From the NCBI RefSeq assembly GCF_964213995.1, contig NC_135828.1, positions 30,566,001 through 30,630,000 of the forward strand: a stretch of 64,000 nucleotides of DNA. Reading direction: 5' to 3'. Under the pieces are notes generated by a model. It saw only the letters and a program-made list of their open reading frames with translations, was not told where the DNA came from and searched no databases. Made by a program: the position numbers and the translations under genes. Positions 1,640 through 53,659 of the stretch are shown here, piece after piece; the first letter of the stretch is position 1, and each line of letters begins with the position of its first letter. Source of the stretch: Mustelus asterias. Taxonomy: Eukaryota.

Positions 1640-4600
1640 TTCAGTTAAATTTGGCTTAATAATCGGAGGTTTTTTTTCAAAACAGGAAGTAGGCCCAGGA
1701 GCAGCCTGGGGAGGTTTTTTGGAGGGTTTAAATGCAGGCCGCACTTTTGAGCGGGCAGCGTCTGGAGCGGGCAGTGGAGTGAGCAGGGAGCAGAGTGTGA
1801 GCTGTAAGGGCTTTGGCTCACAGGGCTTAGGCGAAGGCGAGGAAGGTTGTTTGTTTTTCTTCTGTTACACCCCCTTTTTTGTTTTATCTCCCAAAAACTA
1901 AACAGGACATGGCTGGTATGAGGGGGAGGCCAGTATACTGCATTCGGTGTGGGATGTGGGAGTTCCTGCAGACAACTTGCCTCCCGGAAGTCCATATCTG
2001 TGCCAGATGCGTGGAACTGCAACTCCTGAAGGAACGTGTAAAGGAGCTGGAGCTGAGGCTCGATGAACTCAGTTTAGTTAGGGAAAATGAGAGATTAATA
2101 GATAAAAGTTATATTCAGGGTCTCGGAAGGAAGACACGTGGGTGACAGTTAGGAGGGGTAATAGTCGGAAGGTGATGTGCCAGAAAGTACACCAGTGGCA
2201 GTCTCCCATAAAAGAAAGGGATGGGCAACAGATGGGAGAAGGGAAGGGAGTGAGCAGTCTGTGGTGGGATCCCCTGTGGTTGTCCCCCTCCAAAATAGGT
2301 ATATTGTTTTGGATTCTGTGGAGGGGGATGACCCTTCAGGGGTAAGCCACGAGGACAAGATCGCTTCCACGGAGACAGGCTCAGGGGTCCGGAAGGGAAA
2401 GAAGGGGTTTAGGAGAGCGATAGTTGTGGGGGACACAATGGTTAGAGGCACGGACAGGCGGTTCTGTGGGAGTGAACAAGAATCCAGGATGGCAGTCTGC
2501 CTCCCTGGTGCCGGGGTACTGGTTGTCTCCGAGAGGGTAGGAAGCATATTTAAAAAGGAAGGTAGTCAAACGGATGTGATTATACACATTGGTGAAAATG
2601 ATGTAGGTAGGAAGAGCAGGGGGGGTCATACGAGAGAAATTCAGGGAGTTGGGTGCTAGGCTAAAAAGTAAGGCCTCCAGGGTAGCAATCTCTGGACTGC
2701 TCCCGGTGTGTAGTCCAAGTGAGGCTCGGAACAGGGTGATTCTACAGTTGAACGCGTGGCTAAAGGACTGGTGCAAGAGGGAGGGTTTAAAATTCATAGA
2801 TAACTAGGAAATCTTCAAGTCAGGATGGCAACTGTACAGAAAGGATGGGTTACACCTTAACTGGAAGGGGGCAAATATCCTGGCTGGGAGTTTTGCTAGA
2901 TTGTTTCGGCAGGATTTAAACTAGTGTGGCAGGGGGGTGGGGAACAAAACAGTAGGTCAGTAAATACTGAGGCTGGGGTTGAGCTGGGGGCCAGGGCAAG
3001 GCTAGCTAAGAAGAGGAGCACTCTGGAGGAGGATGACCTGAGTGGGCCTGGAGGTCTGGAGTGCATCTGCTTCAATGCGAGGAGCGTAACGGGTAAAACA
3101 GACGAACTTAGGGCCTTAATGCTTATGCGGAATTTGGATATGATTGCGGTGACGGAAACTTGGTTAAACGAAGGACAGGACTGGCAGCTGAATATTCCGG
3201 GGTATAAGTGTTTTAGGCGAGACAGAGGAGGGGCTAAAAAAGATGGGGGAGTAGCGATATTAGTTAAGGAGCATATTACCGCGGTGCAGAGGGTAGACAA
3301 CTTAGAGGGGTCATATACTGAGTCGCTGTGGGTGGAACTCAGAAACAGGAAGGGTGCAGTCACTATGCTGGGGGTGTACTACAGACCACCCAACAACCCA
3401 CGGGAAGTGGAGGAAAGGATATGTCAGGAGATTCTGGATAGGTGCAGAAAAAATAGGGTTGTTGTAGTGGGGGACTTTAATTTCCCTGGCACAGACTGGA
3501 AAGTGCTTAGAGCTGGGGGTCCGGACCGGGAGGAATTTGTAAAATGCGTACTGGAAGGTTCTTTGGAACAGTATTAGATAGCCCGACTAGAGAGGGGGCT
3601 ATACTGGACCTAGTTCTGGGAAATGAGCCCGGTCAGGTCGTCAAAGTTTCGGTAGGGGAACATGTGGCAAATAGTCACCACAACTCTGTTAACTTTAGAA
3701 TAGTAATGGACAAGGATGAGTGCTGTCCTACGGGCAGGGTGCTAAATTGGGTGAAGGCTAACTATAGCCGGATGAGGCAGGAATTGGTGGATGTTGATTG
3801 GGAGAGGATGTTCGAGGGTAACTCCGCGTCTAGCATGTGGGAGTCTTTTAAGGAACTATTGATAAGGCTGCAGGATAGGCATGTGCCTGTAGAAAGGAAA
3901 GATAGGAAAGGTAGGATTCGAGAGCCGTAGATAACCAGGGAAATTGAGGATCTGATTAAAATGAAAAGGGAGGCGTACGTTAAGTCCAGGCTACAGAAAA
4001 CAGATGGAGCTCTGGAGGAATACAGAGAGAGTAGGAAAGAACTCAAACGGGGAGTTAGGAGGGCAACAAGAGGTCACGAGATGTTCTTGGCAGGCAGGAT
4101 TAAGGAGAATCCTAAGGCATTCTATTCATACGTTAGGAACAAAAGAGTTGTCAGGGAGAAAATCGGACCTCTCAGGGACAAACGAGGGGAATTATGCTTA
4201 GAGCTCAAGGGAATAGGGGAGATCCTAAATGAATACATTGCATCGGTATTCACGAAGGAGAGGGGCGTGTTAACCGGGAGTGTCTCGGAGGGAGGTGTTG
4301 ACCCGTTAGAGGAAATCTCTATTACAAGAGAGGAAGTGTTAGGTTTTTTAGGGAACAGTAAAACTGACAAAGCCCCAGGGCCTGATGGCATCTATCCTCG
4401 ACTGCTCAGGGAGACGAGAGATGAAATTGCTGGGCCTCTGACGGAAATCTTTGTCGCTTCTTTGGACACGGGTAAGGTCCCTGAGGATTGGAGGATAGCA
4501 AATGTGGTCCCGTTGTTTAAAAAGGGTAGTAGGGATCAACCAGGAAATTATAGGCCGGTGAGCTAGACGTCCGTGGTAGGGAAGTTGTTGGAAGGGAATC

Positions 4601-5925
4601 TTAGAGACAGGGTGTATGTGCATTTAGAACGGAACAATCTCATTAGTGACAGACAGCATGGTTTTGTAAGAGGGAGGTCGTGCCTTACAAATTTGGTGGA
4701 GTTCTTTGAGGAAGTGACAAAAACGGTTGATGAAGGAAGGGCCGTGGATGTCGTCTATATGGATTTCAGTAAGGCATTTGACAAGGTCCCACATGGCAGG
4801 TTAGTTAAGAAGGTTAAGGCTCATGGGATACAAGGAGAAGTGGCTAGATGGGTAGAGAACTGGCTTGGCCACAGGAGACAGAGGGTAGTGGTCGAAGGGT
4901 CTTTTTCTGGCTGGAGGTCTATGACTAGTGGTTTTCCGCAGGGCTCTGTACTGGGACCTCTGCTATTTGTGATATATATAAATGATTTGGACGAAGGTGT
5001 AACTGGTGTAATCAGCGAGTTTGCGGATGACATGAAGATGGCTGGACTTGCGGATAGTGAAGAGCATTGTCGGGCAATACAGCAGGATATAGATAGGCTG
5101 GAAAATTGGGCGGAGAGGTGGCAGATGGAGTTTAATCCGGATAAATGTGAAGTGATGCATTTTGGAAGAAATAATGTTGGGAGGAGTTATGCAATAAATG
5201 GCAGAGTCATCAGGAGTATAGAAACACAGAGGGACCTCGGTGTGCAAGTCCACAAATCCTTGAAGGTGGCAACACAGGTGGAGAGGGTGGTGAAGAAGGC
5301 ATATGGTATGCGTGCCCTTATAGGATGGGGTATAGAGTATAAAAGCTGGAGTCTGATGATGCAGCTGTATAGAACGCTGGTTAGGCCACATTTGGAGTAC
5401 TGCATCCAGTTCTGGTCGCCGCACTACCAGAAGGACGTGGAGGCGTTAGAGAGAGTGCAGAGAAGGTTTACCAGGATGTTGCCTGGTATGGAGAGTCTTA
5501 GCTATGAGGAGAGATTGGGTAAACTGGGGTTGTTCTCCCTGGAAAGACGGAGAATTAGGGGAGATCTAAAAGAGGTGTCCAAGATTATGAAGGGGATAGA
5601 TAGGGTGAACGGTGGGAAGCTTTTTCCCAGATCAGAAGTGACGTTCACGAGGGGTCACGGGCTCAAGGTGAGAGGGGCGAAGTATAACTCAGATATTAGA
5701 GGGATGTTTTTTACACAGAGGGTGGTGGGGGCCTGGAATGCGCTGCCAAGTAGGGTGGTGGAGGCAGGCACGCTGACATCGTTTAAGACTTACCTGGATA
5801 GTCACATGAGCAGCCTGGGAATGGAGGGATACAAACGATTGGTCTAGTTGGACCAAGGGGCGGCACAGGCTTGGAGGGCCGAAGGGCCTGTTTCCTGTGC
5901 TGTACTGTTCTTTGTTCTTTTGTTT
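1640..5925 (+). mobile_element. Near full-length CR1 LINE: ORF1 (Zn finger, coiled coil, SGNH esterase) and ORF2 (APE endonuclease plus RT), disabled
   Basis: ORF1 from ATG 1909: CIRC...CARC, LxxRVxELE, IVVGDT, IHIGENDV, DGLHLN. ORF2: CFNARS, AVTETWL, VVGDFN, APGPDG, MDFSKAFD, PQGSVLGP, FADD. Stops at ~3575, ~3928, ~4564; (tgttctt)n tail. Confidence 0.96.
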
Positions 5926-8900: not shown

Positions 8901-11338
8901 AGGGAGTTCCAGGTATTTGACACAGTGACAGGAAGTAACCCATCCATGTCAGGATGGTATGTGGCTTGATGCGGAATATGAATGTGATGAAATGTCCATG
9001 CGTCTGCTTTCCTAGGTGGCTGGGTGCACAGATATGGAAGATGCTATGGAAGGAGAATTGGTACGTTAATGCAGTGTATTTTGTCAGTGGGCTCTCACTC
9101 TACGTCAGTGGTGAAGGGAGTGAATAGTTAAGAATGTGATGGGGTGCCAATCAAATGGGTGGCAGAGGCTTGGAGGGTTTTTAGCATCTTGAGCCTTGTT
9201 GGGGCTTCACTCAGCCAGCAAAGTAGAGACTGTTCCACTGCACTACTGACTCATTCCCTGTAGAATGTAAACTTTATTTTCGGTATTGGAGAGGCGAATT
9301 GTAATGCGCATTGCAAAATCGTCAGTCTGTCCTTGATGATGAAGCGGAGGTCATTTATGGAACTGCTGAAGGTATTTGTGCCTCGACACAACTCTGAGAA
9401 ACTTCTGCAACGATCTAATGTGACTGAGGCCCTGGCATCAAACATCGACGATCATCTAAGTTTCAGATGTGCATGACTCCAACTAAAGGCGTGTTTCCCT
9501 TAATTCCCATTCATTCTGGTTTTCCTGGCGTTGCTTAATGCCGAGATATCAAGTGAGCAATTTTCACCTCAACTCTTGAGATCAGCTGATTTATTTCCCA
9601 CGTTTGGACCAAGCTACATTGTGGTCAGGAGCTGAGTGGACATTATATAATCCAAGCTGAGTTTTCCTGAGCAGTTTACTGCTGGCCATGTGCCATGTGA
9701 CATTGTTGCTTTTGACAACTTCTATCACTTTGCTAATGACAGTGAGAGGATGTATGGTATGGCTTTGTGTCTAATGTAATTAGTCTTGCATTCTGTGGAC
9801 CAGTCATAACTGTCCAATTCACAACATTGCCAGTTAGATGCTCCTATTGGAGATAAACAAGAACAACTTGCCCAGGGGAGTAATGAGTTCTGGAGCACAA
9901 CTTTGCAAAAATATTGTCAAAGTCCATAGTGTTTTACAGTATTGAGTGTCTTCAGCTGTTTCTCGATATTATGTGGACTGAATCGACATACCTGGCATCT
10001 GTGACCCTCCAACTCGTTCAGGAGGAGGCCAAGATGGGTCATCCAATTCGCATCTCCCCATTGATGAAGTACTCCCCCCTTTTCTTTTGCACTCGGGTGC
10101 TCGTACCTTCAACATCGTTGATACAGATGTTTGTGGAGCGTCTTCCCTTTAACCATAGAAACATAGAAAATTACAGCTCAGAAACAGGCCTTTTTGCCCT
10201 TCTTGTCTGTGCCAAACCACTTTATGCCTAGTCCCACTGACCTGCACTTGGAGCACATCCCTCCACACCCCTCTCATCCATGAAACCATCCAAGTTTTTC
10301 TTAAATGTTAAAAGTTGTTTACCACTTTATCCGGCATTATCCGGCAATTACCACTTTATCCGACAGCTCATTCCACAGTCCCACCACTCTCTGCGTGAAG
10401 AAGCCCCCCCTAATATTCCCTTTAAACTTTTCTCCTTTCACCCTTAACCCATGCCCTCTGGTTTTTTTCTCCCCTAGCCTCAGTGGAAAAAGCCTGCTTG
10501 TATTCACTCTATCTATACCCATCAAAATCTTATACACCTCTATCAAATCTCCCCTCAATCTTCTACGCTCCAGGGAATAAAGTCCCAACCTATTCAATCT
10601 CCCTCTGTAACTCAGCTTCTCAAGTCCCGGCAACATCCTTGTGAACTTTCTCTGCACTCTTTCAATCTTATTTACATCCTTCCTGTAACTAGGTGACCAA
10701 AACTGTACACAATACTCCAAATTCGGCCTCACCAATGCCTTATATAACCTTACCATAACACTCCAACTTTTATACTCGATACTCCGATTTACAAAGGCCA
10801 ATGTACCAAAGGCAGTCTTTACGACCCTATCCACCTGTGACGTCACTTTTAGGGAATTCTGTACCTGTATTCGCAGATCCCTCTGTTCAACTGCACTCTT
10901 CAGAGTCCTACCACTTACCCTGTACGTTCTTCTTTGGTTTGTCCTTCCAAAGTGCAATATCTCACACTTGTCTGCGTTAAATTCCATTTGCCATTTTTCA
11001 GCCCATTTTTCTAGTTGGTCCAAATCCCTCTGCAAGCTTTGAAAACCTTCCTCACTGTCCACTACACCTCCAATCTTTGTATCATCAGCAAACTTGCTGA
11101 TGCAATTTACCACATTATCATCCAGATCATTGATATAGATGACAAACAACAATGGACCCAACACCGATCCCTGCGGCACACCACTAGTCACAGGCCTCCA
11201 CTCAGAGAAGCAATCCTCCACAACCACTCTCTGGCTTCTTCCATTGATGTGGAGATGCCGGCGTTGGACTGGGGTAAGCACAGTAAGAAGTCTCACAACA
11301 CCAGGTTAAAGTCCAACAGGATTATTTGGTAGCAAATA

Positions 11339-11375
11339 CCATAAGCTTTCGGAGCACAGCTCCTTCTTCAGATGG
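11339..11375 (-). ncRNA. Minimal type I hammerhead-ribozyme-like motif (left arm, copy 1)
   Basis: Reverse strand reads ccat-CUGAAGA-A-GGAGC-ugu-GCUCC-GAAA-GC-UU-augg: core boxes, stem II and stem I. Confidence 0.7.
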
Positions 11376-11436
11376 AGTGGATATCTGTTCTCAAACAGTG
11401 CAAACAGTTTGCACTGTTTGAGAACAGATATCCACT

Positions 11437-11473
11437 CCAGCTGACGAAGGAGCTGTGCTCCGAAAGCTTATGG
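11437..11473 (+). ncRNA. Minimal hammerhead-ribozyme-like motif (right arm, copy 1; one stem I mismatch)
   Basis: ccag-CUGACGA-A-GGAGC-ugu-GCUCC-GAAA-GC-UU-augg. Confidence 0.6.
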
Positions 11474-13284
11474 TATTTGCTACCAAATAAACCTGTTGGA
11501 CTTTAACCTGGTGTTGTGAGACTTCTTACTGTTCTTCCATTGAGCCAGTGTCTAATCCAAGTTACTACCTCCCCATGTATACCTAGCGACTGAACCTTCC
11601 TAACTAACCTCCCATGAGGGACCTTGTCAAAGGCCTTGCTGAAATCCAGGTAGACAACATCCACCGCCTTCCCTTCATCCACTTTCCTGGTAACCTCCTC
11701 GAAAAACTCTAATAGATTGGTCAAACATGACCGACCACGCACAAAGTCATGTTGACTCTCCCTAATAAGTCCCTGTCTATCCAAATATTTGTAGATCCTA
11801 TCCCTTATCACACCTTCCAAACACTTGCCCACCACTGACGTCAAGCTTACTGGCCGATAATTTCCCGGATTTCTTTTGGAACCTTTTTTAAACAACGGAA
11901 CAACATGAGCCACCCTCCAATCATCCGGCACCTCCCCCGTGAATACTGACATTTTAAATATGTCTGCCAGAGTCCCTGCAAGTTCAACACTAGCTTCCCT
12001 CAAGGTCCGTGGGAATACCCTATCCGGTCCTGAGGATGTATCCACTCTGATTTGCCTCAAGACAGCGAGCACCTCCTCCCCTTTAATCTGTAAAGGTTCC
12101 ATGGCCTCCCTACCAGTTTGCCCTATTTCCGTAGACTCCATGCCCGTTTCCTCAGTAAATACGGATGCAAAAAAACCATTTAGTATCTCCCCCATCTCTT
12201 TTGGTTCCATACACAGTGTACCACTCTGGTCTTCAAGAGGACCAATTTTATCCCTCACTATCCTTTTGCTCCTAACAGACCTATAGAAGCTCTTTGGATT
12301 TTCCTTCTCTCTGTCTGCCAAAGCAACCTCATGTCTTCTTTTAGCCCTCCTGATTTCCCTCTTAAGTAGCTTCTTGCACTTTTTATACTCCTCGAGCATC
12401 TGATGTGTTCCTTGCTGCCTGTACATTTCATACAACTCTCTCTTCCTCTTAATCAGCGTTACAATCTCCCTCGAGAACCAAGGTTCCTTATTCCTATTTA
12501 CTTTGCCTTTAATCCTGACAGGAACATACAAACTCTGCACTCTCAAAATTTCTCCTTTGAAGGCCTCGTGGTTTCCATTTACATCCTTACCAGAGAACAG
12601 CCTGTGCCAATCCACACTTCCCAGATCCCTTCTCATTTCATCAAATTTGGGCTTTTTCCAGTTCAGAACTTCAACCCGAGGACCAGATCTATCCTTACCC
12701 ACGATCAGGTTGAAACTAATGGCATTATGATCACTGGATCCAAAGTGTTCCCTCACACTCACATCCATCACCTGCCCTAACTAATTTCCCAATAGGAGAT
12801 CCAATATCGCATACTCTCTAGTTGGCACCTCTATATACTGATGTAGAAAATTCTCCTGAACACATTTTACAAACTCTACCCCGTCTAAACCTTTAACAGT
12901 ATGCGAGTCCCAATCTATATGTGGAAAATTAAAATCCCCTACTATCACAACTTTGTGTTTCTTGCAGTTGTCAGCTATCTCTCCGCTGATTTGCTCCTCC
13001 AATTCTCGCTGACTATTGGGTGGTCTATAATACAAGCCCATTAATGTGGTCATACCTTTCCTGTTATCTTTTTTAACGGTCTAGTATCATTCATGATTGT
13101 ATGTGCCTGGATTGCCGAGTTTAATTTTATTCTGCTGACTTTGGTATCACTTTCGCCATCCATTGCGTGCTGCCACCGCTATTTCACATTGAAGTAGTCC
13201 AATGTTTCAGCTTCATCAGGTTGACACCTAAATTTGGTTTGCCTGATGCTCCTGTTCTGCACCGTTCTTTGAGCAATGGTTCAT

Positions 13285-28344: not shown

Positions 28345-29915
28345 ATTTTGAAATTTGATTGGGTTTTTTCAACGGGTAACCAAGAAGGTAAATGAGGGCA
28401 CTGCAGTTGATGTTGTCGACATGGGCTTTAGCAAGGCTTTTGACATGATACCCAATGGTAGGTTGTTGCATAAGGTTGAATCTCAAGGGATCCAGGGTGA
28501 GGTAGCTAACTGGATATAAAATTGGCTTCTTGACAGAAGTCATGATGTGGAGATGCCAGCGTTGGACTGGGGTAAGCACAGTAAGAAGTCTCACAACACC
28601 AGGTTAAAGTCCAACAGGTTTATTTGGTAGCAAATACCATAAGCTTTCGGAGCACAGCTCCTTCGTCAGATGGAGTGGATATCTGTTCTCCAACAGTGCT
28701 CTGACACAGAATCTGTGCACTGTTGGAGAACAGATATCCACTCCATCTGACGAAGGAGCTGTGCTCCGAAAGGTTATGGTATTTGCTACCAAATAAACCT
28801 GTTGGACTATAACCTGGTGTTGTGAGACTTCTTACTGTTCTTGACAGAAGCCAGAGGGTGGTTGCAGAGGGATGCTTTTCAAACTGGACGCCTGTGACCA
28901 GCGGTGTGCCTCAGGGATCAGTGCTGGGTCCGCTGTTATTTGTCATTTATATTCACGATATGGATGAGAATATAGGAGGCATGGTTAGTAAGTTTGCAGA
29001 TGACACCAGGATTGGTGGCAGAGTGGACAGCGAAGAAGGTTATCTCGGATTGCCACGGGATCTTGATCAATTGCGCCAATGGACTCACGAATGGCAGATG
29101 GAGTTTAATTTAGATGAATGCAACGTGATGCATCTTGGTAGATTGAACCAGGGCAGGACTTACTCAGTTAATGATAGGGCGTTGGGAATCGTTAAAGAAC
29201 AAAGAGATCTCGGGGTACATTTTCATAGCTCCCTGAAAGTGGAGTCACAGGTGGACAGAGTGGTGAAGAAGGCAATCACATGCTTGGTTTCGTTGGTCAG
29301 AACCATGAATACAGGAGTTGGGACGTCTTGCTGAAGTTGTACAAGACATTGGTAAGGCTACACTTGGAATACTGTGTACTGTGTACAGTTCTGGTCACTG
29401 AAAGGATATTATTAAACTAGAAAGACTGCAGAAAAGATTTACTAGGATGCTACCGGGAATTGATGGTTTGAGTTATAAGGAGAGGCTGGATCGACTGGGA
29501 CTTTTTTCTCTGGAGCATAGAAGGCTGAGGGGTGATCTTACAGAGGTCTATGAAATAATGAGGGGTACAGATCAGCTAGATCGTCAATATCTTTTTCCAA
29601 AGGTGGGGGAGTGTAAAACTGGAGAGCATAGGTTTAAGGTGAGAGGGGAGAGATACAAAGGTGTTCAGAGGGGGATGTTTTCCACACAGAGTGTGTTAAG
29701 TGTCTGGAACAGGCTGCCAGAGGTATTAGTAAAGGCGGGTACAATTTAGTCTTCTAAAAAGCATTTTGACAGTTACACAGGTAAGTTGGGTATAGAGGGA
29801 TATCGGCCAAATACGGGCAATTGGGACTAGCTTAGGGGTTTAAAAAAGAGGTGCCATGGACAAGTTGGGCCGAAGGGTCTGTTTCCATGCTGTAAACCTC
29901 TATGACTCTATGACA
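28345..29915 (+). mobile_element. 5'-truncated decayed CR1 interrupted by a Penelope-derived palindrome
   Basis: PVTSGVPQGSVLGP, FADD, RDLGVH motifs; ctctatgactctatga tail. Confidence 0.92.
28540..28837. mobile_element. Non-autonomous palindromic Penelope-like element, copy 2, with hammerhead-like motifs at 28637-28673 (-) and 28743-28779 (+)
   Basis: Arms ~28579-28699 and 28717-28837; 13-bp TSD ttcttgacagaag at 28527-28539 and 28838-28850; near identical to copy 1. Confidence 0.9.
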
Positions 29916-34778: not shown

Positions 34779-36877
34779 GAAAGCAACACATTTAATCCTG
34801 ATTGGAAACAGAGCAAGGTGCGATAGGGGGTGAGGGTGGAGGTGAGTGTTGGCGGTGGGGGGGTGGGATGTGGTTGGAGGCGGAGGGCATGGGGGGGGCT
34901 TCTTTGCAGTGAATGGCTAGGAATTGGTGTGCAGTCCCTGGGAGGGCTGCATTATATGATTCAATATTAGCTTCCAAATGACAATTGTATAAATAATTCC
35001 AAGAGGAAAGATTTGCAGGAATAGTGGTGAGGATTTGGAGAGTTGCACTGTGCATTTGAAAGATTTGGCGTAGACACAATGTGCTGCACTATTTGAGAAA
35101 ATTATGGAGTTATATTATGTCTCCAAATTCGGCATTTTGTTTTGTAACTTCCATGGGTATCGACTATCAATGCATGATCTAACAGATTAAAAAGGAACAC
35201 ATGAGTGAATGACTTGATCGAGTTGATTGAAGGACGTCTTCAACATGAGTGTCAACAGTCCATAATAATAGGACGTAATTTGAAAATTGGAGGCAGGCTG
35301 TTGTGGGCACATATTATGAAGCACATTACTAACGCTGCTTTATGAAAGCCTTGTTTTCCAAAGTACTGTTGGGTCTGGGGGTGAATTGAAAATGTCAGGT
35401 CTCTGGTATGGACAAGTCTGACTGGCCGGTCGGGAACAGGAAAATCAGTGATCGCTATGGAACCAAGGCGAGGAAGGACGACTCATCCTTATATTAAATG
35501 GTCGGAGAGGTGAGAGGAGTTGAAGGCCAACTCAAGTTCTTATCTCATTTATGAAGCATCAAACTGTAAATTCCTCTTTCCCTGTACTTCCTTATCCTCA
35601 ATAACTCCTTCTCCGTCTCTTATTATCAGATCATGTTTTATAGATTGGCTTTCTATTTCCCCTGATGTGAACTGGCATTGTATTCTCATTTTCTTGTTTT
35701 GCCACCCGCTCTCCTTCTCAAAATCCTGCCTCGGGTAATGAAACCAATGCTGCATTCAGTCCTCAGCAAGGTAATATATACTGATAGTATCTCTTTGTAA
35801 CATTTCCTAATTCTTTGCTGCATCTGGAGGTGAGTGATGTACAAGGGTAACGAGCTCCCGCTGGATACCAACTGAACAAATTCTACAATGTTGACACCAT
35901 TCTGATACAAATTCTGGCCGGTCGGGAGTCCAAACAAGCGACAGCATCTCATCTTCACCCTTCTGGACCCGCATGGCACCAATGCGCAGCTGAAATCCTG
36001 AATGAATGAGCACTGTTGCAGAAGGGTGTGACTAATGAATAGAACAAATCCATCCCTTTCTCTGTGTGCTGTTCAGCAGAAGTTTGATTCTGGCCCACTT
36101 TCCCAGGCACCTGATGTTATACGATACAACAGTACTTTGCGCCCGATTTGAAACTCTCCACTGGTGCCCCTTTGAGGCAGGAATGTGGTTACTGTAATGT
36201 AAGTACATATCAGCTTGTTCATCTCCTCCTCCTTACAACCTCATGCCCTTGGAATTTACTTACAATTTCAGTAAAAAAATGCAGTTAAATTCTGAAAGAC
36301 TGTTTGATTCTGTCTCCATGACAGTCTGAGGTTCATTCCTCCCAATACATTCACCACTTACACAGGAAAAATGAAGTGTAGTTATTTCGATGGACTGAAA
36401 TACCTACTTTCTGCTCTTATGGCTTATGGGCTCATAGTCCCGGGGTGTGGCATTCACTTTGATAATTGAGCAATACACATTCGTGCACCCACCTCCTGCC
36501 AGTAGTATCATTATCTCACAGTTTGCCATGTCAAATCTGCTTAAGAGTTGGAAGACATTTCTCTCAGCCTTCTTTCTACAAGTAGACCAAATACATCTCA
36601 TCCTGTTTGCTGTTCCTAACTGAGAAGTCTCTGATCCTTGAACAATTTTGGTAAATATTTACCTCTTTAGTAGCTTCGCATATGTCTGAATTGCTGCACA
36701 ATATTCCAGTTGAGGCCGCACAAGTGGTTTTTGTCTCCCCCCACCCCGCCCCCCACAACCCCCCCCCCCCCCTCCCCCGCCCCGCCCCCCTCCACACACA
36801 CATACACATACACTTTTTTCAGGTCGGGTAAACTAAAAGACCGATCAGGGCTGATTCCAGAATGTGAAGACACCCAC

Positions 36878-37213
36878 CTGTCTTACTTCTAATCTTCTCC
36901 TCGGCATGCACCTCCTTCCCTTCTTTACTGTAATGCGTTACTTTGCACGAAAACTCCTGGCGTCCCCAATCCTCCCGGGACACAGTCACCCGGCTGCTCA
37001 CACTGTAGACGTTGAGCTGGGCCTTCACCGGCCTGTCCGTCACCACATACTTCTCCTCGACCTCTTGGCCGTCCGCGCTCCAGTAGAATTTCACATAGTC
37101 CGGAAAGAAGTGACTGGCCAGGCACACTATGGTAACTTTCCTGTGATCCCGGATCTCTTCTTCCGATGGCTCAAAAATCGTCACCTTGGGGTGCTTAACC
37201 TCCTGACCTGCCT
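36878..37213 (-). CDS. TRBC: TCR beta-like constant region exon 1 (C1-set Ig domain)
   Basis: cattccag|AG GCA...; (E)AGQEVKHPKVTIFEPSEEEIRDHRKVTIVCLASHFFPDYVKFYW...YSVSSRVTVSREDW...FSCKVTHY...KIRSKT|gtgggt. TRBC hallmarks FEPSxxEI, VCLAxxFxPD, YxxSSR, W and both Cys are present; frame is open. Confidence 0.95.
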
Positions 37214-37479
37214 CTGGAATGTGTGGAGGACACGGGGAAGAAGGGAGGTGCAACAAACGAAATTTGTTAACAGATGGAACAGATGGAGAGTAACGAAGAT
37301 GATGTTAAACAGGGTTATTTCTCTCTCACCGTTATTCTGGTTGGCAATTGACATTTGTTCACCTGATTATTTGACCTTGTGTTGCATCACACTAAACCTT
37401 GATTCCGCTGCAAACGAGGGGCATTCCATTATCAGATTGTCCCGGAGTGTGTAAAGACATAATTTGAGAAATCGAGCAG

Positions 37480-38397: not shown

Positions 38398-40891
38398 TAA
38401 GACCATAAGACCATAAGACATAGGAGCGGAAGTAAGGCCATTCGGCCCACCGAGCCCACTCCACCATTCAATCATGGTTGATTTCAACTCCATTTACCCG
38501 CTCTCTCCCCATAGCCCTTAATTCCTCGAGAAATCAAGAATTTATCAATTTCTGTCTTGAAGACGCTCAACGTCTTGGCCTCCACAGCCCTCTGTGGCAA
38601 TGAATTCCACAGACCCACCACTCTCTGGCTGAAGAAATTTCTCCTCATCTCTGTTCTAAAGTGACTCCCTTTTATTCTAAGGCTGTGCCCCCGCGTCCTA
38701 GTCTCCCCTGTTAATGGAAACAACTTCCCTACGTCCATCCTATCTAAGCCGTTCATTATCTTGTAAGTTTCTATCAGATCTCCCCTCAACCTCCTAAACT
38801 CCAATGAATATAATCCCACGATCCTCAGACGTTCATCGTATGTCAGGCCTACCATTCCTGGGATCATCCGTGTGAATCTCCGCTGGACCCGCTCCAGTGC
38901 CAGTATGTCCTTCCTGAGGTGTGGGGCCCAAAATTGCTCACAGTACTCCAAATGGGGCCTAACCAGTGCTTTATAAAGCCTCAGAAGTACATCCCTGCTT
39001 TTGTATTCCAAGCCTCTTGAGATAAATGACAACATTACATTTGCTTTCTTAATTACGGACTCAACCTGCAAGTTTACCTTTAGAGAATCCTGGACTAGGA
39101 CTCCCAAGTCCCTTTGCACTTTAGCATTATGAATTTTGTCACCGTTTAGAAAATAGTCCATGCCGCTATTCTTTTTTCCAAAGTGTACGACCTCGCACTT
39201 GCCCACGTTGAATTTCATCAGCCACTTCTTGGACCACTCTCCTAAACTGTCTAAATCTTTCTGCAGCCTCCCCACCTCCTCAATAGTACCTGCCCCTCCA
39301 CCTATCTTTGTATCATCGGCAAACGTGGCCAGAATGCTCCCAGTCCCGTCATCTAGATCGTTAATATATAAAGAGAACAGCTGTGGCCCCAACACTGAAC
39401 CCTGCGGGACACCACTTGTCACCGGTTGCCATTCTGAGAAAGAACCTTTTATCCCAACTCTCTGCCTTCTGTCTGACAGCCAATCGTCAATCCATGTTAG
39501 TACCTTGCCTCGAATACCATGGGCCCTTATTTTACTCAGCAGTCTCCCGTGAGGCACCTTGTCAAAGGCCTTTTGGAAGTCAAGATAGATAACATCCATT
39601 GGCTCTCCTTGTCTAACCTATTTGTTATCTCTTCAAAGAACTCTAACAGGTTTGTCAGGCACGACCTCCCCTTACTAAATCCATGCTGACTTGTCCTAAT
39701 CCGACCCTGCACTTCCAAGAATTTAGAAATCTCATCCTTAATGATGGATTCTAGAATTTTGCCAACAACTGAGGTTAGGCTAATTGGCCTATAATTTTCC
39801 ATCTTTTTTCTTGTTCCCTTCTTGAACAGTGGGGTTACAACAGCAATTTTCCAGTCCTCTGGGACTTTCCCTGACTCCAGTGACTTTTGAAAGATCATAA
39901 CTAACGCCTCCACTATTTCTTCAGCTATCTCCTTTAGAACTCTAGGATGTAGCCCATCTGGGCCCGGAGATTTACCAATTTTCAGACCTTTTAGTTTCTC
40001 TAGCACTTTCTCCTTTGTGATGGCAACCATATTCAACTCTGCCCCCTGACTTTCCTGAATTGTTGGGATATTACTCATGTCTTCTACTGTGAAGACTGAC
40101 GCAAAGTACTTATTAAGTTCCTCAGCTATTTCCTTGTCTCCCATCACTAGATTACCAGCGTCATTTTGGAGCGGCCCAATGTCTACTTTTGCCTCCCGTT
40201 TGTTTTTAATGTATTTAAAGAAACTTTTACTATCATTCCTAATGTTACTGGCTAGCCTACCTTCATATTTGATCCTCTCCTTCCTTATTTCTCTCTTTGT
40301 TATCCTCTGTTTGTTTTTATAGCCTTCCCAATCTTCTGACTTCCCACTACTCTTTGCCACATTATAGGCTCTCTCTTTTGCCTTGATGCATTCCCTGACT
40401 TCCTTTGTCAGCCATGGCTGCCTAATCCCCCCTCTGATAACCTTTCTTTTGTTTGGGATGAACCTCTGCACTGTGTCCTCAATTACTCCCAGAAACTCCT
40501 GCCATTGCTGTTCTACTGTCTTTCCCACTAGGCTCTGCTTCCAGTCGATTTTTGTCAGTTCCTCCCTCATGCGCCTGTAATTATCTTTATTTAACTGTAG
40601 AACCTTCACATCTGATTCTGCCTTCCTTCTTTCAAATTGCAGACTGAATTCTACCATATTATGATCACTGCTTCCTAAGTGTTCCCTTACTTTAAGATAT
40701 TTTATCACGTCTGGCTCATTACATAACACTAAGTCCAGAATAGCCTGTTCCCTCGTGGGTTCCATCACAAGCTGTTCCAAAAAGCCATCCTGTAAACATT
40801 CAATGAATTCCCTTTCTTTGGGTCCACTGGCAACATTATTTACCCAGTCCACCTGCATATTGAAATCCCCCATGATCACTGTGACCTTGCC
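38398..40891 (-). mobile_element. Young 5'-truncated CR1 in the J-C intron, same orientation as the TCR gene
   Basis: ORFs 39536..40879 and 38484..39599 joined by a single frameshift; (cttatggt)n tail. Confidence 0.95.
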
Positions 40892-41162
40892 AAATCTCCC
40901 CCGCTTCCATGTGTTCTATTTCCACTTCTGAATTTATTTTCCTTCCCCATCTTCATCCTTGTCTCTGTTTCTTGCAATTTACCAGTGTCTGCCACTGTTT
41001 ATCTCAAAACCTCCCTCTCTTTCCTATTTCTCTCCCTCTCTTTGACTCTTTCCCTCTTTATCAACAACAATCTATCTCCAATCGGCAATCAAGGAAAGAA
41101 AAACATTCTACCCATGGCCAATGTTTCAAAGATTAAAAATAACTGCCGTTTGGAGTACTCAC

Positions 41163-41208
41163 CTAAAACAGTCAGCCTGGTCCCTGCTCCGAAGTGCTGT
41201 TCAGCATT
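41163..41208 (-). CDS. TRBJ: TCR beta-like J gene segment
   Basis: Reverse strand AATGCTGAACAGCACTTCGGAGCAGGGACCAGGCTGACTGTTTTAG|gtgagt = NAEQHFGAGTRLTVL; FGxG motif; phase-1 donor in frame with the C exon. Confidence 0.95.
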
Positions 41209-41236
41209 CACAGTGTTATTGAGCCAGACGCAAACT
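41209..41236 (-). promoter_or_regulatory. 12-spacer recombination signal sequence of the J segment
   Basis: On +: heptamer CACAGTG 41209-41215 (consensus), 12-nt spacer ttattgagccag, nonamer ACGCAAACT 41228-41236 (6/9 to ACAAAAACC). Confidence 0.92.
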
Positions 41237-44160: not shown

Positions 44161-44437
44161 ATCATTTTGAGAGATCAAGACATGAGGGGAAAAGGTACAG
44201 AATAAGAAGTTTACAGAATAAAAGTGTACAAAATAAAAGGTACAGAATAGGAAGGTTGTAGGCCATTATCTGTTGGAACCCCTGTATCGGTTGTGTGTTA
44301 TCTGACAGTGGAGCTGTGTTACCTTTGTGTTAGTCGGAGCCTCTGTATCGGTTGTGTGCTCTATAACAATATCACTATGTGAGTTGTGTCACTTAAATGA
44401 CCTTTATCAGTTATGTGTTCTATGTCAGTGGATATCT

Positions 44438-44572
44438 ATGATGTGGAGATGCCGGCGTTGGACTGGGGTAAACACAGTATCCATGTGACGAAGGAGCAGC
44501 GCTCCGAAAGCTAATGGTATTTGCTACCAAATAAACCTGTTGGACTTTAACCTAGTGTTGTTAAAACTCTTA
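44438..44572 (+). mobile_element. Single-arm Penelope-derived element, copy 3, with a core-mutated hammerhead-like motif (44481-44517)
   Basis: Same 5' leader tgatgtggagatgccggcgttggactgggg and same 3' arm; TSD cagtgga(t/c)atct at 44426-44437 and 44573-44584. Confidence 0.85.
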
Positions 44573-44643
44573 CAGTGGACATCTCTACCAGTCGTGTCAG
44601 TTGGCCCTCAGTATACCCGAACAGGCGTTGAAGTGTGGCGACT

Positions 44644-47600
44644 CATGTGCCTGTAAAAAGGAAACATAGAACATAGAACATAGAACATTACAGCGCAGAA
44701 CAGGCCCTTCGGCCCACGATGTTGCACCGACCAGTTAAAAAAAAAAACTGTGACCCTCCAACCTAAACCAATTTCTTTTCGTCCATGAACCTATCTACGG
44801 ATCTCTTAAACGCCCCCAAACTAGGCGCATTTACTACTGATGCTGGCAGGGCATTCCAATCCCTCACCACCCTCTGGGTAAAGAACCTACCCCTGACATC
44901 GGTTCTATAACTACCCCCCCTCAATTTAAAGCCATGCCCCCTCGTGCTGGATTTCTCCATCAGAGGAAAAAGGCTATCACTATCCACCCTATCTAAACCT
45001 CTAATCATCTTATATGTTTCAATAAGATCCCCTCTTAGCCGCCGCCTTTCCAGCGAAAACAATCCCAAATCCCTCAGCCTCTCCTCATAGGATCTCCCCT
45101 CCATACCAGGCAACATCCTGGTAAACCTCCTCTGCACCCTCTCCAAAGCCTCCACATCCTTCCTGTAATGTGGGGACCAGAACTGCACACAGTACTCCAA
45201 GTGCGGCCGCACCAGAGTTGTGTACAGTTGCAACATAACGCTACGACTCCTAAATTCAATCCCCCTACCAATAAACGCCAAGACACCATATGCCTTCTTA
45301 ACAACCTTATCTACTTGATTCCCAACTTTCAGGGATCTATGCACACATACACCTAGATCCCTCTGCTCCTCCACACTATTCAAAGTCCTCCCGTTAGCCC
45401 TATACTCAACACATCTGTTATTCCTACCAAAGTGAATTACCTCACACTTCTCCGCATTAAACTCCATCCGCCACCTCTCGGCCCAACTTTGCAACCTGTC
45501 TAAGTCTTCCTGCAAACTACGACACCCTTCCTCACTGTCTACCACACCACCGACTTTGGTGTCATCAGCAAATTTGCTAATCCACCCAACTATACCCTCA
45601 TCCAGATCATTAATAAATATTACAAACAGCAGTGACCCCAAAACAGATCCCTGAGGTACACCACTTGTAACCGCACTCCATGATGAATATTTACTATCAA
45701 CCACCACCCTCTGTTTCCTATCCGCTAGCCAATTCCTGATCCAATTTCCTAGATCACCCCCAATCCCATACATCTGCATTTTCTGCAGAAGCCTACCATG
45801 GTGAACCTTATCAAACGCCTTACTAAAATCCATATATACCACGTCCACTGCCTTGCCCCCATCCACCTCCTTGGTCACTTTCTCAAAAAACTCAATAAGG
45901 TTAGTAAGGCACGACCTACCTGCCACAAAACCATGCTGACTATCACCTATCAATTCATTACTCTCCAAATAACTATAAATCCTATCCCTTATAATTTTTT
46001 CCAACATCTTGCCGACAACAGAAGTGAGACTCACCGGTCTATAATTCCCGGGGAAGTCTCTGTTCCCCTTCTTAAACAATGGGACAACATTCGCTAACCT
46101 CCAATCTTCTGGTACTATACCAGAGGCCAACGACGACCTGAAGATCAGAGCCAGAGGCTCTGCAATCACTTCTCTTGCCTCCCAGAGAATCCTTGGATAA
46201 ATCCCATCCGGACCAGGGGATTTATCTATTTTCAGACCCTCCAGAATATCCTGCACATCCTCCTTATCAACTGTAATACTGTCTATTCTACTCCCTTGCA
46301 ACCCAGTGTCCTCCTCAGCTATATTCATGTCCCCTTGCGTGAACACCGAAGAGAAATATTGGTTCAATGCTTCACCAATCTCCTCCGGTTCCACACATAA
46401 CTTCCCTCTGCCATCTATAACTGGCCCTAAACTTGCCCTAACCAACCTTCTGTTCTTGACATACCTATAGAACGCCTTAGGATTCTCTTTAACCCTATCC
46501 GCCAAAGTCTTCTCATGTCCCCTTTTAGCCCTTCTAAGCTCGCTCTTCAACTCCCTCTTAGCCAATCTAAAGCTTTCTAGTGCACTACCCGAGTGCTCAC
46601 GTCTCATCCGAACATAAGCCTCCTTTTTCTTTTTAACCAACAAAGAAACTTTTTTGGTGCACCACGGTTCCCTAGCCCTACCAATTCCTCCTTGCCTGAC
46701 AGGGACATACCTATCACAGACTCGCAGTAGCTGCTCCTTGAAAAAACTCCACATGTCGGACGTTCCCAGTCCCTGTAATCTCCTAGTCCAACCTATGTTT
46801 CCTAATTCTCTCCTAATAGCCTCATAATTACCCTTCCCCCAGCTAAAACCACTGGCCCGAGGTTCATGCCTATCCCTTTCCATCACTAAGGTGAACGTAA
46901 CCGAATTGTGGTCACTATCACCAAAATGCACACCAACTTCCAAGTCCAAGAAAGATAGGAAAGGTAGGATTCGAGAGCTGTGGATAACCAGGGAAATTGA
47001 GGATCTGATTAAAATGAAAAGTGAGGCGTACGTTAAGTCCAGGCAACTGAAAACAGATGGAGCTCTGGAGGAATACAGAGAGAGTAGGAAAGAACTCAAA
47101 TGGGGAGGTGGAAGGGCAAAAAGAGGTCACGAGATGTTCTTGGCAGGCAGGATTAAGGAGAATCCTAAGGCATTCTATTCATACGTTAGGAACAAAAGAG
47201 TTGTCAGGGAGAAAATCGGACCTCTCAGGGACAAAGGAGGGGAATTATGCTTAGAACCCGAGGGAATAGGGGAGATCCTAAATGAATACTTTGCATCGGT
47301 ATTCACGAAGGAGAGGGGCGTGTTAACCGGGAGTGTCTCGGAGGGAGGTGTTGACCCGTTAGAGAAAATCTCCATTACAAGAGAGGAAGTGTTAGGTTTT
47401 TTAGGGAACAGTAAAACTGACAAAGCCCCAGGGCCTGATGGCATCTATCCTCGACTGCTCAGGGAGACGAGAGATGAAATTGCTGGGCCTCTGACGGAAA
47501 TCTTTGTCGCTTCTTTGGACACGGGTGAGGTCCCTGAGGATTGGAGGATAGCGAATGTGGTCCCGTTGTTTAAGAAGGGTAGCAGGGATAACCCGGGAAA

Positions 47601-48975: not shown

Positions 48976-49036
48976 GACTCGGGATTATCAAAGTAACTTT
49001 ATTGGAGTGTTAATGTGACCAATCAAAAAAAAATTG

Positions 49037-49370
49037 GGGTGACACCGTGGTTAGCACTGCTGCCTCACCGCTCTAGGGACCCGTGTTCAATTCCCGGCTT
49101 GGATCACTACCTGTGTGGAATTTGTAACTTCTCTCCGTGTCTGTGTGTGTTTCCTCCGAGTGATCCGGTTTCCCCCCACAGTCCAGAGATGTGCAGATTA
49201 GGTGGATTGGCCATGCTCAATTGCCCCTCAGCGTCAGAGGATCTACCTGGGGTAACTGCATGTGGTTATGGGGATGGGGCCTGGGTAGGATTGTGGTCAG
49301 TGCAGACTCGATGGGCCGAATGGCCTCCTTCTGCACTGTAGAATTCGATGATTTTATGAATCTATGTATC
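49037..49370 (+). mobile_element. HE1-like SINE
   Basis: gtggttagcactgctgcctcac...gttcaattccc, conserved core and tail. Confidence 0.85.
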
Positions 49371-50744
49371 ACTGGGGACTTTTGTTTGCCTAGGCCTCTT
49401 ATGAGTTTAACATGTCTAACCATGCAACCGCATGCATTAGAAGCACGAGTGGACTAATCAGCCATTTTGATATTGTTCTACCATCCAATAAGATCATGGT
49501 TGTCCTACCTCGCCTGCCCCGAATTACAATTCACCCCATGTTTGCCAAGAATCTCATTATTGCTGCCATTGAAATTATCAAAAAGATACACTTCCACTGC
49601 CTAAGACTTAAATGCTATATTCGTCAAATCCTGCAAAGTATAGTCATAAAGAACCTGCTTTAATCACTTGTCTGCATTTTTTCACCATTAAAAACGGCAG
49701 CTACAACGTGCAAAAAGCCCTGAGAGGTTCAAACTAACATTTCCAATTTCATTATTTCATGATCACTATGGATTCAATGACATCTCTGACATAACATCAG
49801 ATCTGGTGTTGGGAATATTGACTGTATTATTTGTTATTTCATTATTGTGATCTGAACTGTAATGTTGAATCACATTTCTTTGTTCGAGCACATCTGGGAA
49901 TTAACCTGCTGCAGTAATCTGTTTATTCATTTATTCAAGAACAATAAAGGTACTGCAACTTCAGTATCTCAGTGGGATACCCACATGATAGAAATTAAAG
50001 GCCCTCGGAATGCATTGCCTCATAATACAGAAAGATCACTGACAGAAGGATGGGGCAGACTGCATCAGCGAGAAGATGCATCGACCAATTCCACAAGTGC
50101 AGAAATATTACTACGCAGTGCTCGCCATCCTTGGTGTTCACGGTACGTAAATATAATCTTTGAACTTGTGTGGAAGCACGTCAAAGCTTCTCTCTGTTTC
50201 TGCTCTTATTATTGTTATACGCTGATTTCGTGGCGATTGGAACACATACACCCGAACACTCAGACCGTTTCACTCAGAGCGAGCAGGTCACACTCTCTGG
50301 TGTTCATTTAATTTTATTTCCTAAGTGAATGCTTCCATTGCATCTCATGCCCGTGCTCAATCGTTACATTTGCTGCACTGTCCTGGAGCCTGGGCCATAT
50401 AATCATTTCTCGATCTGTCAATTGATATTTGTACAAAGGGATCAGTCAATGTCAAATTAATTGCATGTAAACCACTAAGTAGAGAGAAGCGCCTGGCCCC
50501 ATTGAGCATGTACTCCTGGGAGTATCAGTCCTTCTAAAGTTGTACTGAACGTAATTCACTAACTGCAATCATTAAAACAGTTATGTTTTGAAATAATAAT
50601 GCGAGATCTCAACTCCATTGATCTAAAGTAAAGTTTATTTATTAGTCACAAGTAAGGCTGACATTAGCACTGCAATTAAGTTACTGTCAAATACCCTGAG
50701 TCGCCACACTCCAGCGCCTGTTGCGGTCAATGTGCCTAACCAGT

Positions 50745-51726
50745 GATGCATTACAGTGAGAAACCGCACCGACCTCCTCAGAAGGCAAACACGGGACACG
50801 GCCGACAGAGTGCCCTTTGTTAGCCAGTACTTCCCTGGAGCGGAGAAGCTACAACATCTTCTGCGAAGCCTTCAACACGTCATTGATGAAGACGAACATC
50901 TCTCCAAGGCCATTCCCACACCCTACTATGTGCCTTCAAACAACAGCGCAACCTCAAACAGACCATTGTTCCCAGCAAACCACTCAGCCTTCAGGAGAAC
51001 AGCGACCACAACACCACACAATCCTGCCACAGTAACTTCTGCAAGATGTGCCAGATCACCTAGACGGATGCCATCATCTCACGTGAGAACACCATCCACC
51101 AGATGCACTGTACATACTCTTGAGACTCGGCCAACGTTGTCTACCTGATACACTGCAGGAAAAGATGTCCCGAGGCATGGTACATCGGCAGACGCTACAA
51201 CAACGGATGAATGGACACCGCTCGACAATTACCAGGCAGGAGTGTTTTCTTCCTGTCGGGGCACACTTCAGCAGTCAAGGGCATTCAGCCTCTGATCTTC
51301 GGGTAAGTATTCTCCAAGGCATCCTTCAAGACACACAACAATGCAGAATTGCCGAGCAGAAACTGATGGTCAGGTTCCGCACACATGAGGACGGCCTCAA
51401 CCGGGATCTTGGGTTCACGCTATACTACCATTTGTTACTGTCCCATTCTGGGATTGCAATATCTTACTCACTGTCCTGGCTCGAGACAATTCACACCTCT
51501 TTAATCTGTGCTTAACCGCTCTCCACTCGCATTTTGTACACCTGTAAAGAATTGATTACCTGTTAAGACACGCATTCCAACCATTTCCTTTAATTGAGTT
51601 TTTGTCTATATATGCCCTGTTTGTGAACCCGATTCTTCACTCACCTGATGAAGGGGCAGTGATCCGAAAGCTCGTGCTAACAAATAAACCTGCTGGACTT
51701 TAACATGATGTTGTGAGACTTCTCAT
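50745..51726 (+). mobile_element. Penelope-like retroelement 3' fragment (GIY-YIG endonuclease plus terminal repeat), decayed
   Basis: DSANVVYLIHCRKRCPEAWYIG...QTLQQRMNGHR...EQKL...GLNRDLG; 3' end shared with the palindromic elements. Confidence 0.9.
51642..51676 (+). ncRNA. Minimal hammerhead-ribozyme-like motif of the Penelope terminal repeat
   Basis: cac-CUGAUGA-A-GGGGC-agu-GAUCC-GAAA-GC-UC-gug; stem I (cac/gug) covaries with ccau/augg of the other copies. Confidence 0.65.
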
Positions 51727-53655: not shown

Positions 53656-53659
53656 ATCT

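What the first reader, a model, noticed from the sequence alone, without database searches (positions are those of the whole stretch)
11245..11531. Palindromic Penelope-derived mini-elements carrying two antiparallel minimal hammerhead ribozymes
Seen: ~125-bp inverted arms (also at 28540-28837), each containing CUGANGA-stem II-GAAA-GC-UH. Across the copies, stem I covaries (ccau/augg versus cac/gug at 51642) and the cleavage-site base varies among U, C and A but is never G, as the NUH rule requires. Stem III is reduced to the self-complementary AGCU. Established: Penelope-like elements carry minimal type I hammerheads thought to act as dimers. Inference: this is a non-autonomous, ribozyme-bearing hairpin family that encodes a ribozyme on either strand and could make long dsRNA. 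The head-to-head layout could alternatively be a recurring by-product of Penelope integration.
Basis: partly seen in the sequence, partly recalled or inferred. Interest (0 to 1): 0.72.

Follow-up and report, generated by a model that had tools for sequence, protein, structure and literature searches.

The report
Hairpin-shaped Penelope retrotransposon insertion remnants
These hairpins are real but are the shortest form of a known retrotransposon insertion, with their ribozyme motifs trapped in the hairpin; the unexpected part is that both landed on the same symmetric spot inside another retrotransposon, which hints at how this element chooses and cuts its target.

Summary
Two elements (11245-11532, 28540-28838) have 124-126-bp head-to-head arms, each with a minimal type I hammerhead motif. 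Each also has a 32-38-nt one-sided tail and a 12-13-bp target-site duplication. That is the published Penelope-like element (PLE) insertion layout with no ORF; opposite-strand pairs of minimal hammerheads are also already reported.

A self-propagating palindromic family is not supported. The two fold-back junctions differ, variants are shared by both arms of one copy and never by same-side arms of different copies, and a third copy has the layout with a 6-nt inverted arm. In any through-transcript the antisense arm comes first and the hairpin beats the ribozyme fold by about 60 kcal/mol. One arm per copy is damaged.

Unexpected: both copies sit at the same codon of two CR1 LINEs only 71% alike, in opposite orientation. 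The duplication is centred on a TGGC-N12-GCCA dyad. Contigs from three organisms join CR1 to the arm end at that same base (12 contigs; 45 of 60 joint rows hidden), although most flanks are heterogeneous. Ordinary structure, with one testable lead on target choice.

The parts
11236..11247 (+). left target-site duplication of copy 1 (12 bp; last 3 nt also match the tail end)
   Evidence: exact 12-bp repeat with 11532-11543
11245..11279 (-). one-sided Penelope tail of copy 1 (32 nt, or 35 with the letters shared with the duplication)
   Evidence: present on one arm only, in copies 1, 2 and 3; matches the 30-40-bp tail of PMC8557442 and PMC11167929
11280..11405 (-). left arm: inverted pseudo-LTR (pLTR) copy
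11339..11375 (-). minimal type I hammerhead motif, intact (C3 at 11371, cleavage-site U at 11343)
   Evidence: strict scan hit
11406..11407 (.). fold-back junction of copy 1 (arms differ by about 2 nt, 1-nt overlap)
   Evidence: onward sequence of the arm from the loose end
11407..11532 (+). right arm: direct, tail-less pLTR copy
11437..11473 (+). hammerhead motif with broken stem I closing pair (C3 at 11441)
   Evidence: private T>G at 11440; fails the scan
11532..11543 (+). right target-site duplication of copy 1 (first base shared with the arm end)
10337..12780 (-). host CR1-type LINE reverse-transcriptase frame, split by copy 1
   Evidence: Pfam RVT_1 on both sides; the frame is continuous once the insertion and one duplication are set aside. 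The name CR1 is recalled.
28527..28539 (+). left target-site duplication of copy 2 (12-13 bp)
   Evidence: exact repeat with 28838-28850
28540..28577 (-). tail of copy 2 (37-38 nt)
28578..28713 (-). left arm of copy 2 with intact hammerhead motif (28637-28673); reaches about 11 nt further than the right arm
28712..28838 (+). right arm of copy 2; hammerhead 28743-28779 has AGGU instead of the AGCU palindrome; 2-nt overlap with the left arm
28838..28850 (+). right target-site duplication of copy 2
44438..44577 (.). copy 3 (another subfamily): tail, 6-nt stub of the inverted arm, 98-nt direct arm with one hammerhead whose C3 is changed
   Evidence: no clean duplication (best exact 7 nt)
50750..51726 (+). 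copy 4: decayed 5'-truncated ORF-bearing Penelope ending in a 3' pLTR with hammerhead (C3 at 51645)
   Evidence: frameshifted frames with a cysteine-rich linker and a VVY...YIG motif; Atlas hits at 0.91-0.94, one cluster with GIY-YIG on 15% of members; no Pfam hit

Best explanation
Each hairpin is a dead-end, minimal Penelope insertion made anew at its own integration. SHOWN: it consists of tail + inverted pLTR + direct pLTR between 12-13-bp duplications, with no ORF. INFERRED: the element's GIY-YIG/RT protein nicks both target strands about 12 bp apart. Both 3' ends prime reverse transcription at the two internal start sites that bound the tail, one giving the tailed arm and the other the tail-less arm. 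Both cDNAs stop early near a preferred 5' boundary about 125-140 nt upstream, possibly the RNA 5' end, and are joined through 1-2 nt of microhomology. The two hammerheads are passengers of the pLTR. They are conserved because of selection in the active master elements, and in this head-to-head layout they cannot fold in a read-through transcript or form the cis dimer.
For: Tail, duplications and head-to-head arms match published PLE anatomy: inverted pLTR overlapping the direct one, 31-bp tail, 8-10-bp duplications, palindromes at the junction (PMC3846280; PMC8557442). In vitro, a PLE protein cuts and extends both strands and starts at two RNA sites that bound the tail (PMC11167929). The junctions of copies 1 and 2 differ. 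Of 8 variable columns in 124, 2 are shared by both arms of one copy, 6 are private to one arm, and 0 are shared by same-side arms of the two copies. Copy 3 has arms of 6 and 98 nt. Contigs leaving the arm at 28699 continue into other, non-fold-back sequence (9 contigs of X3, agreement 0.97), and go-back joints show varied 5' truncation points. The hairpin is favoured over the hammerhead fold by 58-64 kcal/mol, with stem II probability about 1e-17. Both tail-less-end primers end in AGAA, which can pair at 4 of 5 positions with the RNA at that start site.
Against: Only two palindromic copies were compared and no genome was held. Both copies fold back within about 12 nt of each other, which random truncation would not predict; this needs a preferred boundary, or favours collapse of a longer insertion or a master with an unstable loop. 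Arm-to-arm gene conversion could also give copy-specific variants in both arms. Contigs lose hairpins and 45 of 60 joint rows were hidden. PMC3846280 proposes a different route (self-priming) and reports that pLTRs alone sufficed to mobilise foreign sequence in trans.
Confidence: 0.6

Rival explanations
1. Collapse of a longer insertion: a standard inverted pLTR - pLTR - ORF - pLTR insertion lost its ORF by recombination between the two direct pLTRs, as in solo-LTR formation. This also makes it a passive remnant.
For: The long layout is the typical one (PMC3846280) and would leave exactly this remnant with intact duplications. It explains why both arms end near the same pLTR boundary. Solo pLTRs are ascribed to recombination or deletion in the same paper.
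Against: Only about 125 bp of homology is available. Copy 3, with a 98-nt direct arm and a 6-nt inverted arm, shows that short asymmetric products exist. No long allele was seen, but none could be looked for.
Confidence: 0.2
2. One reading: a non-autonomous palindromic family copied from a hairpin master by Penelope enzymes in trans.
For: Similar size (288 and 299 nt), 94% identity, nearly the same fold-back zone, own duplications. pLTRs can mobilise in trans (PMC3846280), and PLE-derived non-autonomous retrozymes exist (bioRxiv 10.64898/2026.07.22.740005). Nine joint rows link a tail end to a tail-less arm end on opposite strands, as tandem or circular units would.
Against: Different junctions, and no arm-specific variants shared across copies. 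None of the 15 listed joints is a fold-back at the centre (45 hidden). The RNA would be a -230 to -244 kcal/mol hairpin, and it lacks the sequence downstream of the tail that the anole PLE protein needed in vitro (PMC11167929).
Confidence: 0.12
3. A functional RNA element: either divergent transcription from the centre gives two single-arm RNAs whose hammerheads dimerise in trans through AGCU, or read-through gives a 125-bp duplex that feeds anti-Penelope small RNAs.
For: A bidirectional pLTR promoter was suggested (PMC3846280). An isolated core folds stems I and II and can dimerise in silico (-28.7 against 2 x -11.4 kcal/mol). A near-perfect 125-bp hairpin would form if transcribed.
Against: 3 of the 6 private mutations fall in the 37-nt hammerhead (30% of the arm), and 2 of them break a helix, so there is no sign of maintenance, on small numbers. 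In whole single arms stem I probability is 0-0.33. PLE minimal hammerheads cleave weakly or need protein (PMC4209133, PMC11167929).
Confidence: 0.06
4. Assembly or library fold-back artefact.
For: Near-perfect hairpins can arise as chimeric reads (general knowledge).
Against: Exact 12-13-bp duplications, a host LINE frame continuing on both sides, private arm differences and a one-sided tail.
Confidence: 0.02

Closest known systems
EN+ Penelope-like elements, inverted-pLTR insertion structure (Arkhipova 2013, PMC3846280; Craig 2021, PMC8557442)
   Same: Head-to-head inverted pLTR next to a direct pLTR with a small overlap, a 30-40-nt tail on one side, target-site duplication, 5' truncation.
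   Different: Here nothing lies between the inverted and the final direct pLTR (no ORF); duplications are 12-13 bp against the 8-10 bp in the passages read; two copies share one LINE site.
Minimal type I hammerheads of metazoan PLEs (Cervera and de la Pena 2014, PMC4209133)
   Same: Extra base between A9 and G10.1, G10.1-C11.1 pair, 4-bp stem I, palindromic stem III remnant; that paper already notes pairs 100-700 bp apart on opposite strands in Schistosoma.
   Different: Stem II is 5 bp rather than 7-8; the two cores are only 70-78 nt apart, inside one perfect hairpin.
Poseidon element of Anolis, in vitro (Frangieh 2024, PMC11167929)
   Same: Two internal reverse-transcription start sites bounding an AC-rich tail, both target strands cut and extended, hammerhead dispensable for insertion.
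   Different: That protein preferred AT-rich ATT sites; the two copies here are nicked at A|GCCA on both strands of a dyad. Copy 4 has a cysteine-rich linker that recalls the Neptune type, which was not tested.
Non-LTR retrozymes (bioRxiv 10.64898/2026.07.22.740005)
   Same: Non-coding, PLE pLTR-derived, type I hammerhead.
   Different: Retrozymes are head-to-tail tandems with same-strand hammerheads able to dimerise in cis; these are head-to-head.
MITEs (miniature inverted-repeat DNA transposons; recalled)
   Same: Short, hairpin-forming, non-coding, flanked by a duplication.
   Different: Ends are asymmetric (tail on one side), arms are retroelement pLTR, and junctions differ between copies.

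Membership tests
EN+ Penelope-like element insertion | pLTRs in direct or inverted orientation, inverted 5'-truncated copy adjacent | tested here: met
EN+ Penelope-like element insertion | 30-40-bp tail at one end only | tested here: met
   32-38 nt in copies 1-3
EN+ Penelope-like element insertion | target-site duplication | tested here: met
   12 and 13 bp exact in copies 1 and 2; not clean in copy 3
EN+ Penelope-like element insertion | arm is the terminal repeat of an RT/GIY-YIG ORF element | tested here: inconclusive
   Arm 78% identical to the 3' end of copy 4, whose broken frames show a GIY-YIG-like motif by eye and a weak Atlas lead (GIY-YIG on 15% of one cluster); no Pfam hit; no RT domain in that truncated copy
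Minimal type I hammerhead of PLEs | CUGANGA/GAAA/UH core with stems I and II, extra base after A9, palindromic stem III remnant | tested here: met
   met in both left arms; right arms each carry one lesion; 4 hits against 0.13 expected
Minimal type I hammerhead of PLEs | core conserved while loop II and cleavage-site base vary, G avoided at the cleavage site | tested here: met
   Among the 40 listed differences of 85, none at 28662-28669 or 28642-28647; G12 5.7% (CpG); cleavage-site G 0.2-4%, A 40-69%. Depth-weighted contigs of several subfamilies.
Minimal type I hammerhead of PLEs | self-cleavage as dimer or with protein | not testable with these tools
   needs an in vitro assay; folding predicts trapping in the hairpin
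Non-LTR retrozyme | head-to-tail tandem units with same-strand hammerheads | tested here: not met
   arms are head-to-head on opposite strands
Non-LTR retrozyme | circular RNA expression | not testable with these tools
   no raw RNA reads could be laid
Non-autonomous palindromic family or MITE | copies share one internal junction and arm asymmetries by descent | tested here: not met
   2 of 2 junctions differ; 0 of 8 variable columns are side-specific; only two copies
Non-autonomous palindromic family or MITE | symmetric terminal inverted repeats reaching both ends | tested here: not met
   tail on one end only
Target-specific retroelement | recurrent insertion at one nucleotide of a repeated target | tested here: inconclusive
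   2 of 2 window copies and 12 contigs in three organisms at one CR1 base, but bulk flanks are heterogeneous (agreement 0.33-0.41) and 45 of 60 joint rows are hidden

The most novel reading that the evidence does not exclude
This Penelope subfamily has a sequence-defined hot spot inside CR1 LINEs. A dimeric RT-endonuclease recognises the dyad TGGC-TTCT-N4-AGAA-GCCA, nicks both strands symmetrically at A|GCCA 12 bp apart, and primes two cDNAs at once, helped by pairing of the AGAA primer end with the RNA at the internal start site. The hairpin would then be the direct footprint of concerted two-ended integration, and the element a retrotransposon that preferentially parasitises another retrotransposon's RT gene. 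My searches (listings only) showed no paper reporting a CR1-directed Penelope; Repbase/Dfam annotations and subscription papers could not be seen.
Probability: 0.35. Interest if true: 0.6.

Novelty: new member of a known kind. Interest (0 to 1): 0.3.

Why it matters
As a ribozyme finding it matters little: the layout and the opposite-strand hammerhead pairs are published, and the motifs here are passengers. The target site is what could matter. How PLEs make their inverted and tailed insertions is stated to be unresolved (PMC8557442, PMC11167929). A natural, defined, symmetric target with a 12-bp stagger and a minimal two-arm product would give a ready substrate to test whether a PLE dimer primes both strands together, and whether primer-template pairing steers insertion. 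It also warns annotators that such hairpins can be mistaken for MITEs or microRNA precursors (weak mir-203 and mir-305 hits, far below gathering scores).

Tried and rejected
Whole-genome copy survey: impossible, no genome held. Rfam: no hammerhead family at E<=1; the two microRNA hits (31 and 26 bits against cut-offs of 65 and 66) only reflect the hairpin and were rejected. Pfam on copy 4 fragments: no GIY-YIG hit. Expression: no RNA holder listed; this says nothing either way. Depth falls from 123,202 to 104 (X1) and from 19,070 to 4 (X3) just past the copy-2 fold-back, with no cover in X5 and X13. I do not count this as proof against a family, because it is the edge of the stretch, contigs lose hairpins, and depth is no copy number. 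Earlier findings of the scan: nothing by sequence or words. The variant table had an off-by-one error in one arm and was redone; only one search is used. Table 5c joints ending at 28537-28538 and the 28535-28576 joint were left out of the hot-spot count, because partial similarity of the element's onward sequence can explain them. Copy 3 shows no TGGC-N12-GCCA dyad and no clean duplication, so the target motif is not general. Segmental duplication as the reason for the shared site was rejected: hosts are 204 of 287 identical and the orientations are opposite. No covariance model was built: six arms from four copies give too little variation.
Full report
OBSERVATION. The feature is real. Copy 1 has arms at 11280-11405 and 11407-11532, and copy 2 at 28578-28701 and 28715-28838, 96-97% complementary. 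A local search found two more relatives, at 44439-44577 and 51613-51723. A strict type I hammerhead scan of both strands gave 4 hits in 64 kb, all in these copies, against a mean of 0.13 (maximum 2) in 100 Markov-1 controls. However, the right arm of copy 1 has a broken stem I closing pair and the right arm of copy 2 reads AGGU, so each element has one intact motif, on the minus strand. Rfam gave no hammerhead hit at E<=1.

ANATOMY. Each element is bounded by an exact duplication of 12 bp (11236-11247/11532-11543) or 13 bp (28527-28539/28838-28850). Each carries 32-38 extra bases on the left arm only. Both interrupt a LINE reverse-transcriptase frame (RVT_1) that is continuous when the insertion and one duplication are set aside; calling it CR1, and the genome a cartilaginous fish, is recalled and was not tested. 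Copy 4 is the 3' end of a decayed ORF-bearing element, with a cysteine-rich linker and a VVY...YIG motif in broken frames. Pfam did not detect it, and the Atlas gave only a lead (GIY-YIG on 15% of one cluster at 0.91). The arm is therefore most likely the pLTR of a Penelope-like element.

WHAT IS PUBLISHED. PMC3846280 (passages) describes the typical Penelope insertion: direct pLTRs, an adjacent inverted pLTR overlapping the direct one, a 31-bp tail on one side, 8-10-bp duplications, and abundant head-to-head junction palindromes, which it ascribes to self-priming. PMC8557442 (passages) repeats this and calls the mechanism unresolved. PMC4209133 (parts 1-2 of 4) defines the minimal hammerheads, reports low activity in vitro and notes pairs 100-700 bp apart on opposite strands. 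PMC11167929 (parts 1-2 of 4) shows a PLE protein cutting and extending both strands, starting at two RNA sites that bound the tail, needing RNA beyond the tail, and not needing hammerhead cleavage. The 2026 preprint 10.64898/2026.07.22.740005 (part 1 of 5 and passages) treats head-to-tail retrozymes as PLE derivatives. Papers were otherwise seen as listings only. No supplements were opened.

FAMILY OR BY-PRODUCT. The two junctions differ: copy 1 folds back with about 2 nt of asymmetry, copy 2 with about 11. Of 8 variable columns in 124, 2 are shared by both arms of one copy, 6 are private to a single arm, and none is shared by same-side arms of the two copies. This is what a single-arm template copied twice per insertion gives; gene conversion could mimic it. 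Copy 3 has the same order of parts with a 6-nt inverted stub and a 98-nt direct arm. Contigs of four runs (organisms A, A, B, E) laid on flank, tail and one arm numbered 72,682, 22,717, 50,999 and 143,902, so the repeat is very abundant. Nine contigs of X3 leaving the arm at 28699 continue into non-fold-back sequence (agreement 0.97), go-back joints start at varied points, and none of the 15 listed joints is a central fold-back (45 hidden; contigs lose hairpins). Against a purely random process, both copies fold back within about 12 nt. That needs a preferred 5' boundary, or points to collapse of a longer insertion between direct pLTRs, which I cannot exclude.

THE RIBOZYMES. At family level the motif is conserved. 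Among the 40 listed differences of 85, none touches the CUGANGA or GAAA-GC-U positions except G12 at a CpG (5.7%), while loop II and the cleavage-site base vary; G at that base is 0.2-4% by depth. Loose ends of 118-733 contigs per row show the CAC/GUG-type variant with the same core in all four runs. That reflects the master elements. In the hairpins, a read-through transcript of either strand meets the antisense arm first and holds only one sense motif. The hairpin wins by 58-64 kcal/mol, with stem II probability near 1e-17. Three of the six private mutations fall in the 37-nt motif. Cleavage from these loci is unlikely unless transcription starts at the centre. Long dsRNA is expected if they are transcribed, which is untested.

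THE UNEXPECTED PART. Both copies lie at the same codon of their hosts (W-L-x-x-R-S-Q-R-V-V), in opposite orientation, in LINEs only 204 of 287 identical. Two random insertions into the LINE frames of this window would share a codon with probability 0.0016 (post hoc). The duplication is centred on a dyad, TGGC-N12-GCCA, and all four inferred nicks read A|GCCA. Of 9 LINE copies spanning the site, the 2 with AGAAGCCA are occupied and the 7 without it are empty (1 in 36 by chance), and no empty TGGC-N12-GCCA exists in the window. I noted this before laying reads. In one search, 3 of 15 listed joints run on one strand from the LINE flank to the tail-less arm end, and all 3 break the LINE at 28538 (one written 28537 with a shared letter), the predicted nick, in the orientation opposite to copy 2: 3 contigs in X1, 1 in X3, 3 in X5, 5 in X13. 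Against: flanks at the tail and arm ends are heterogeneous overall and mostly AT-rich (agreement 0.33-0.41), copy 3 lacks the motif, two of the three joints may have letters between, 45 rows are hidden, and one amplified chimera could give several contigs. I read it as a probable hot spot rather than strict specificity. Searches showed no report of it.

VERDICT. A real but ordinary minimal Penelope insertion product (0.6 made at integration, 0.2 by later collapse), not a demonstrated ribozyme-bearing family (0.12). Novelty: new member of a known kind. Interest 0.3, carried mostly by the target-site lead (probability 0.35, interest 0.6 if true).

Noticed in passing
window 36819-37301 (-) and 41130-41230 (-): An immunoglobulin C1-set exon (Pfam PF07654, E 2e-18; top PDB hits are antibody constant domains) and, upstream on the same strand, a J-like segment ending FGAGTRLTVL before a GT donor. 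It looks like a T-cell receptor beta J-C region (recalled, not tested). Copies 1 and 2 lie downstream of it.
   Followed up: partly
joints between 28535-28543 and 28575-28601: Nine joint rows (31 contigs in X1, 22 in X5, 17 in X13) link a tail end to a tail-less arm end on opposite strands. This is what back-to-back insertions, tandem units or circularised units would give. Unexplained.
   Followed up: no
window 28541 (loose ends): A share of contigs continue past the tail in a common sequence, with the ATG near the tail end in it, suggesting the tail overlaps the start of the element's ORF as in PMC3846280.
   Followed up: partly
window 57135-57287 (-): Decayed fragment of large-subunit rRNA (Rfam RF02543, 65.7 bits).
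   Followed up: no
window 49000-59500: Cluster of SINE-like repeats in both orientations that give most of the other inverted pairs; they resemble V-SINE/HE1-type elements (recalled).
   Followed up: no
window 44763-47126 (-), 38484-40915 (-), 3931-5847 (+): Long, nearly intact LINE ORF2 frames of several subfamilies; such frames cover about 19.6 kb of the window.
   Followed up: partly
window 44260-44440: Copy 3 sits at the end of a short degenerate tandem-like stretch and just before a LINE 3' end; its duplication is unclear.
   Followed up: no
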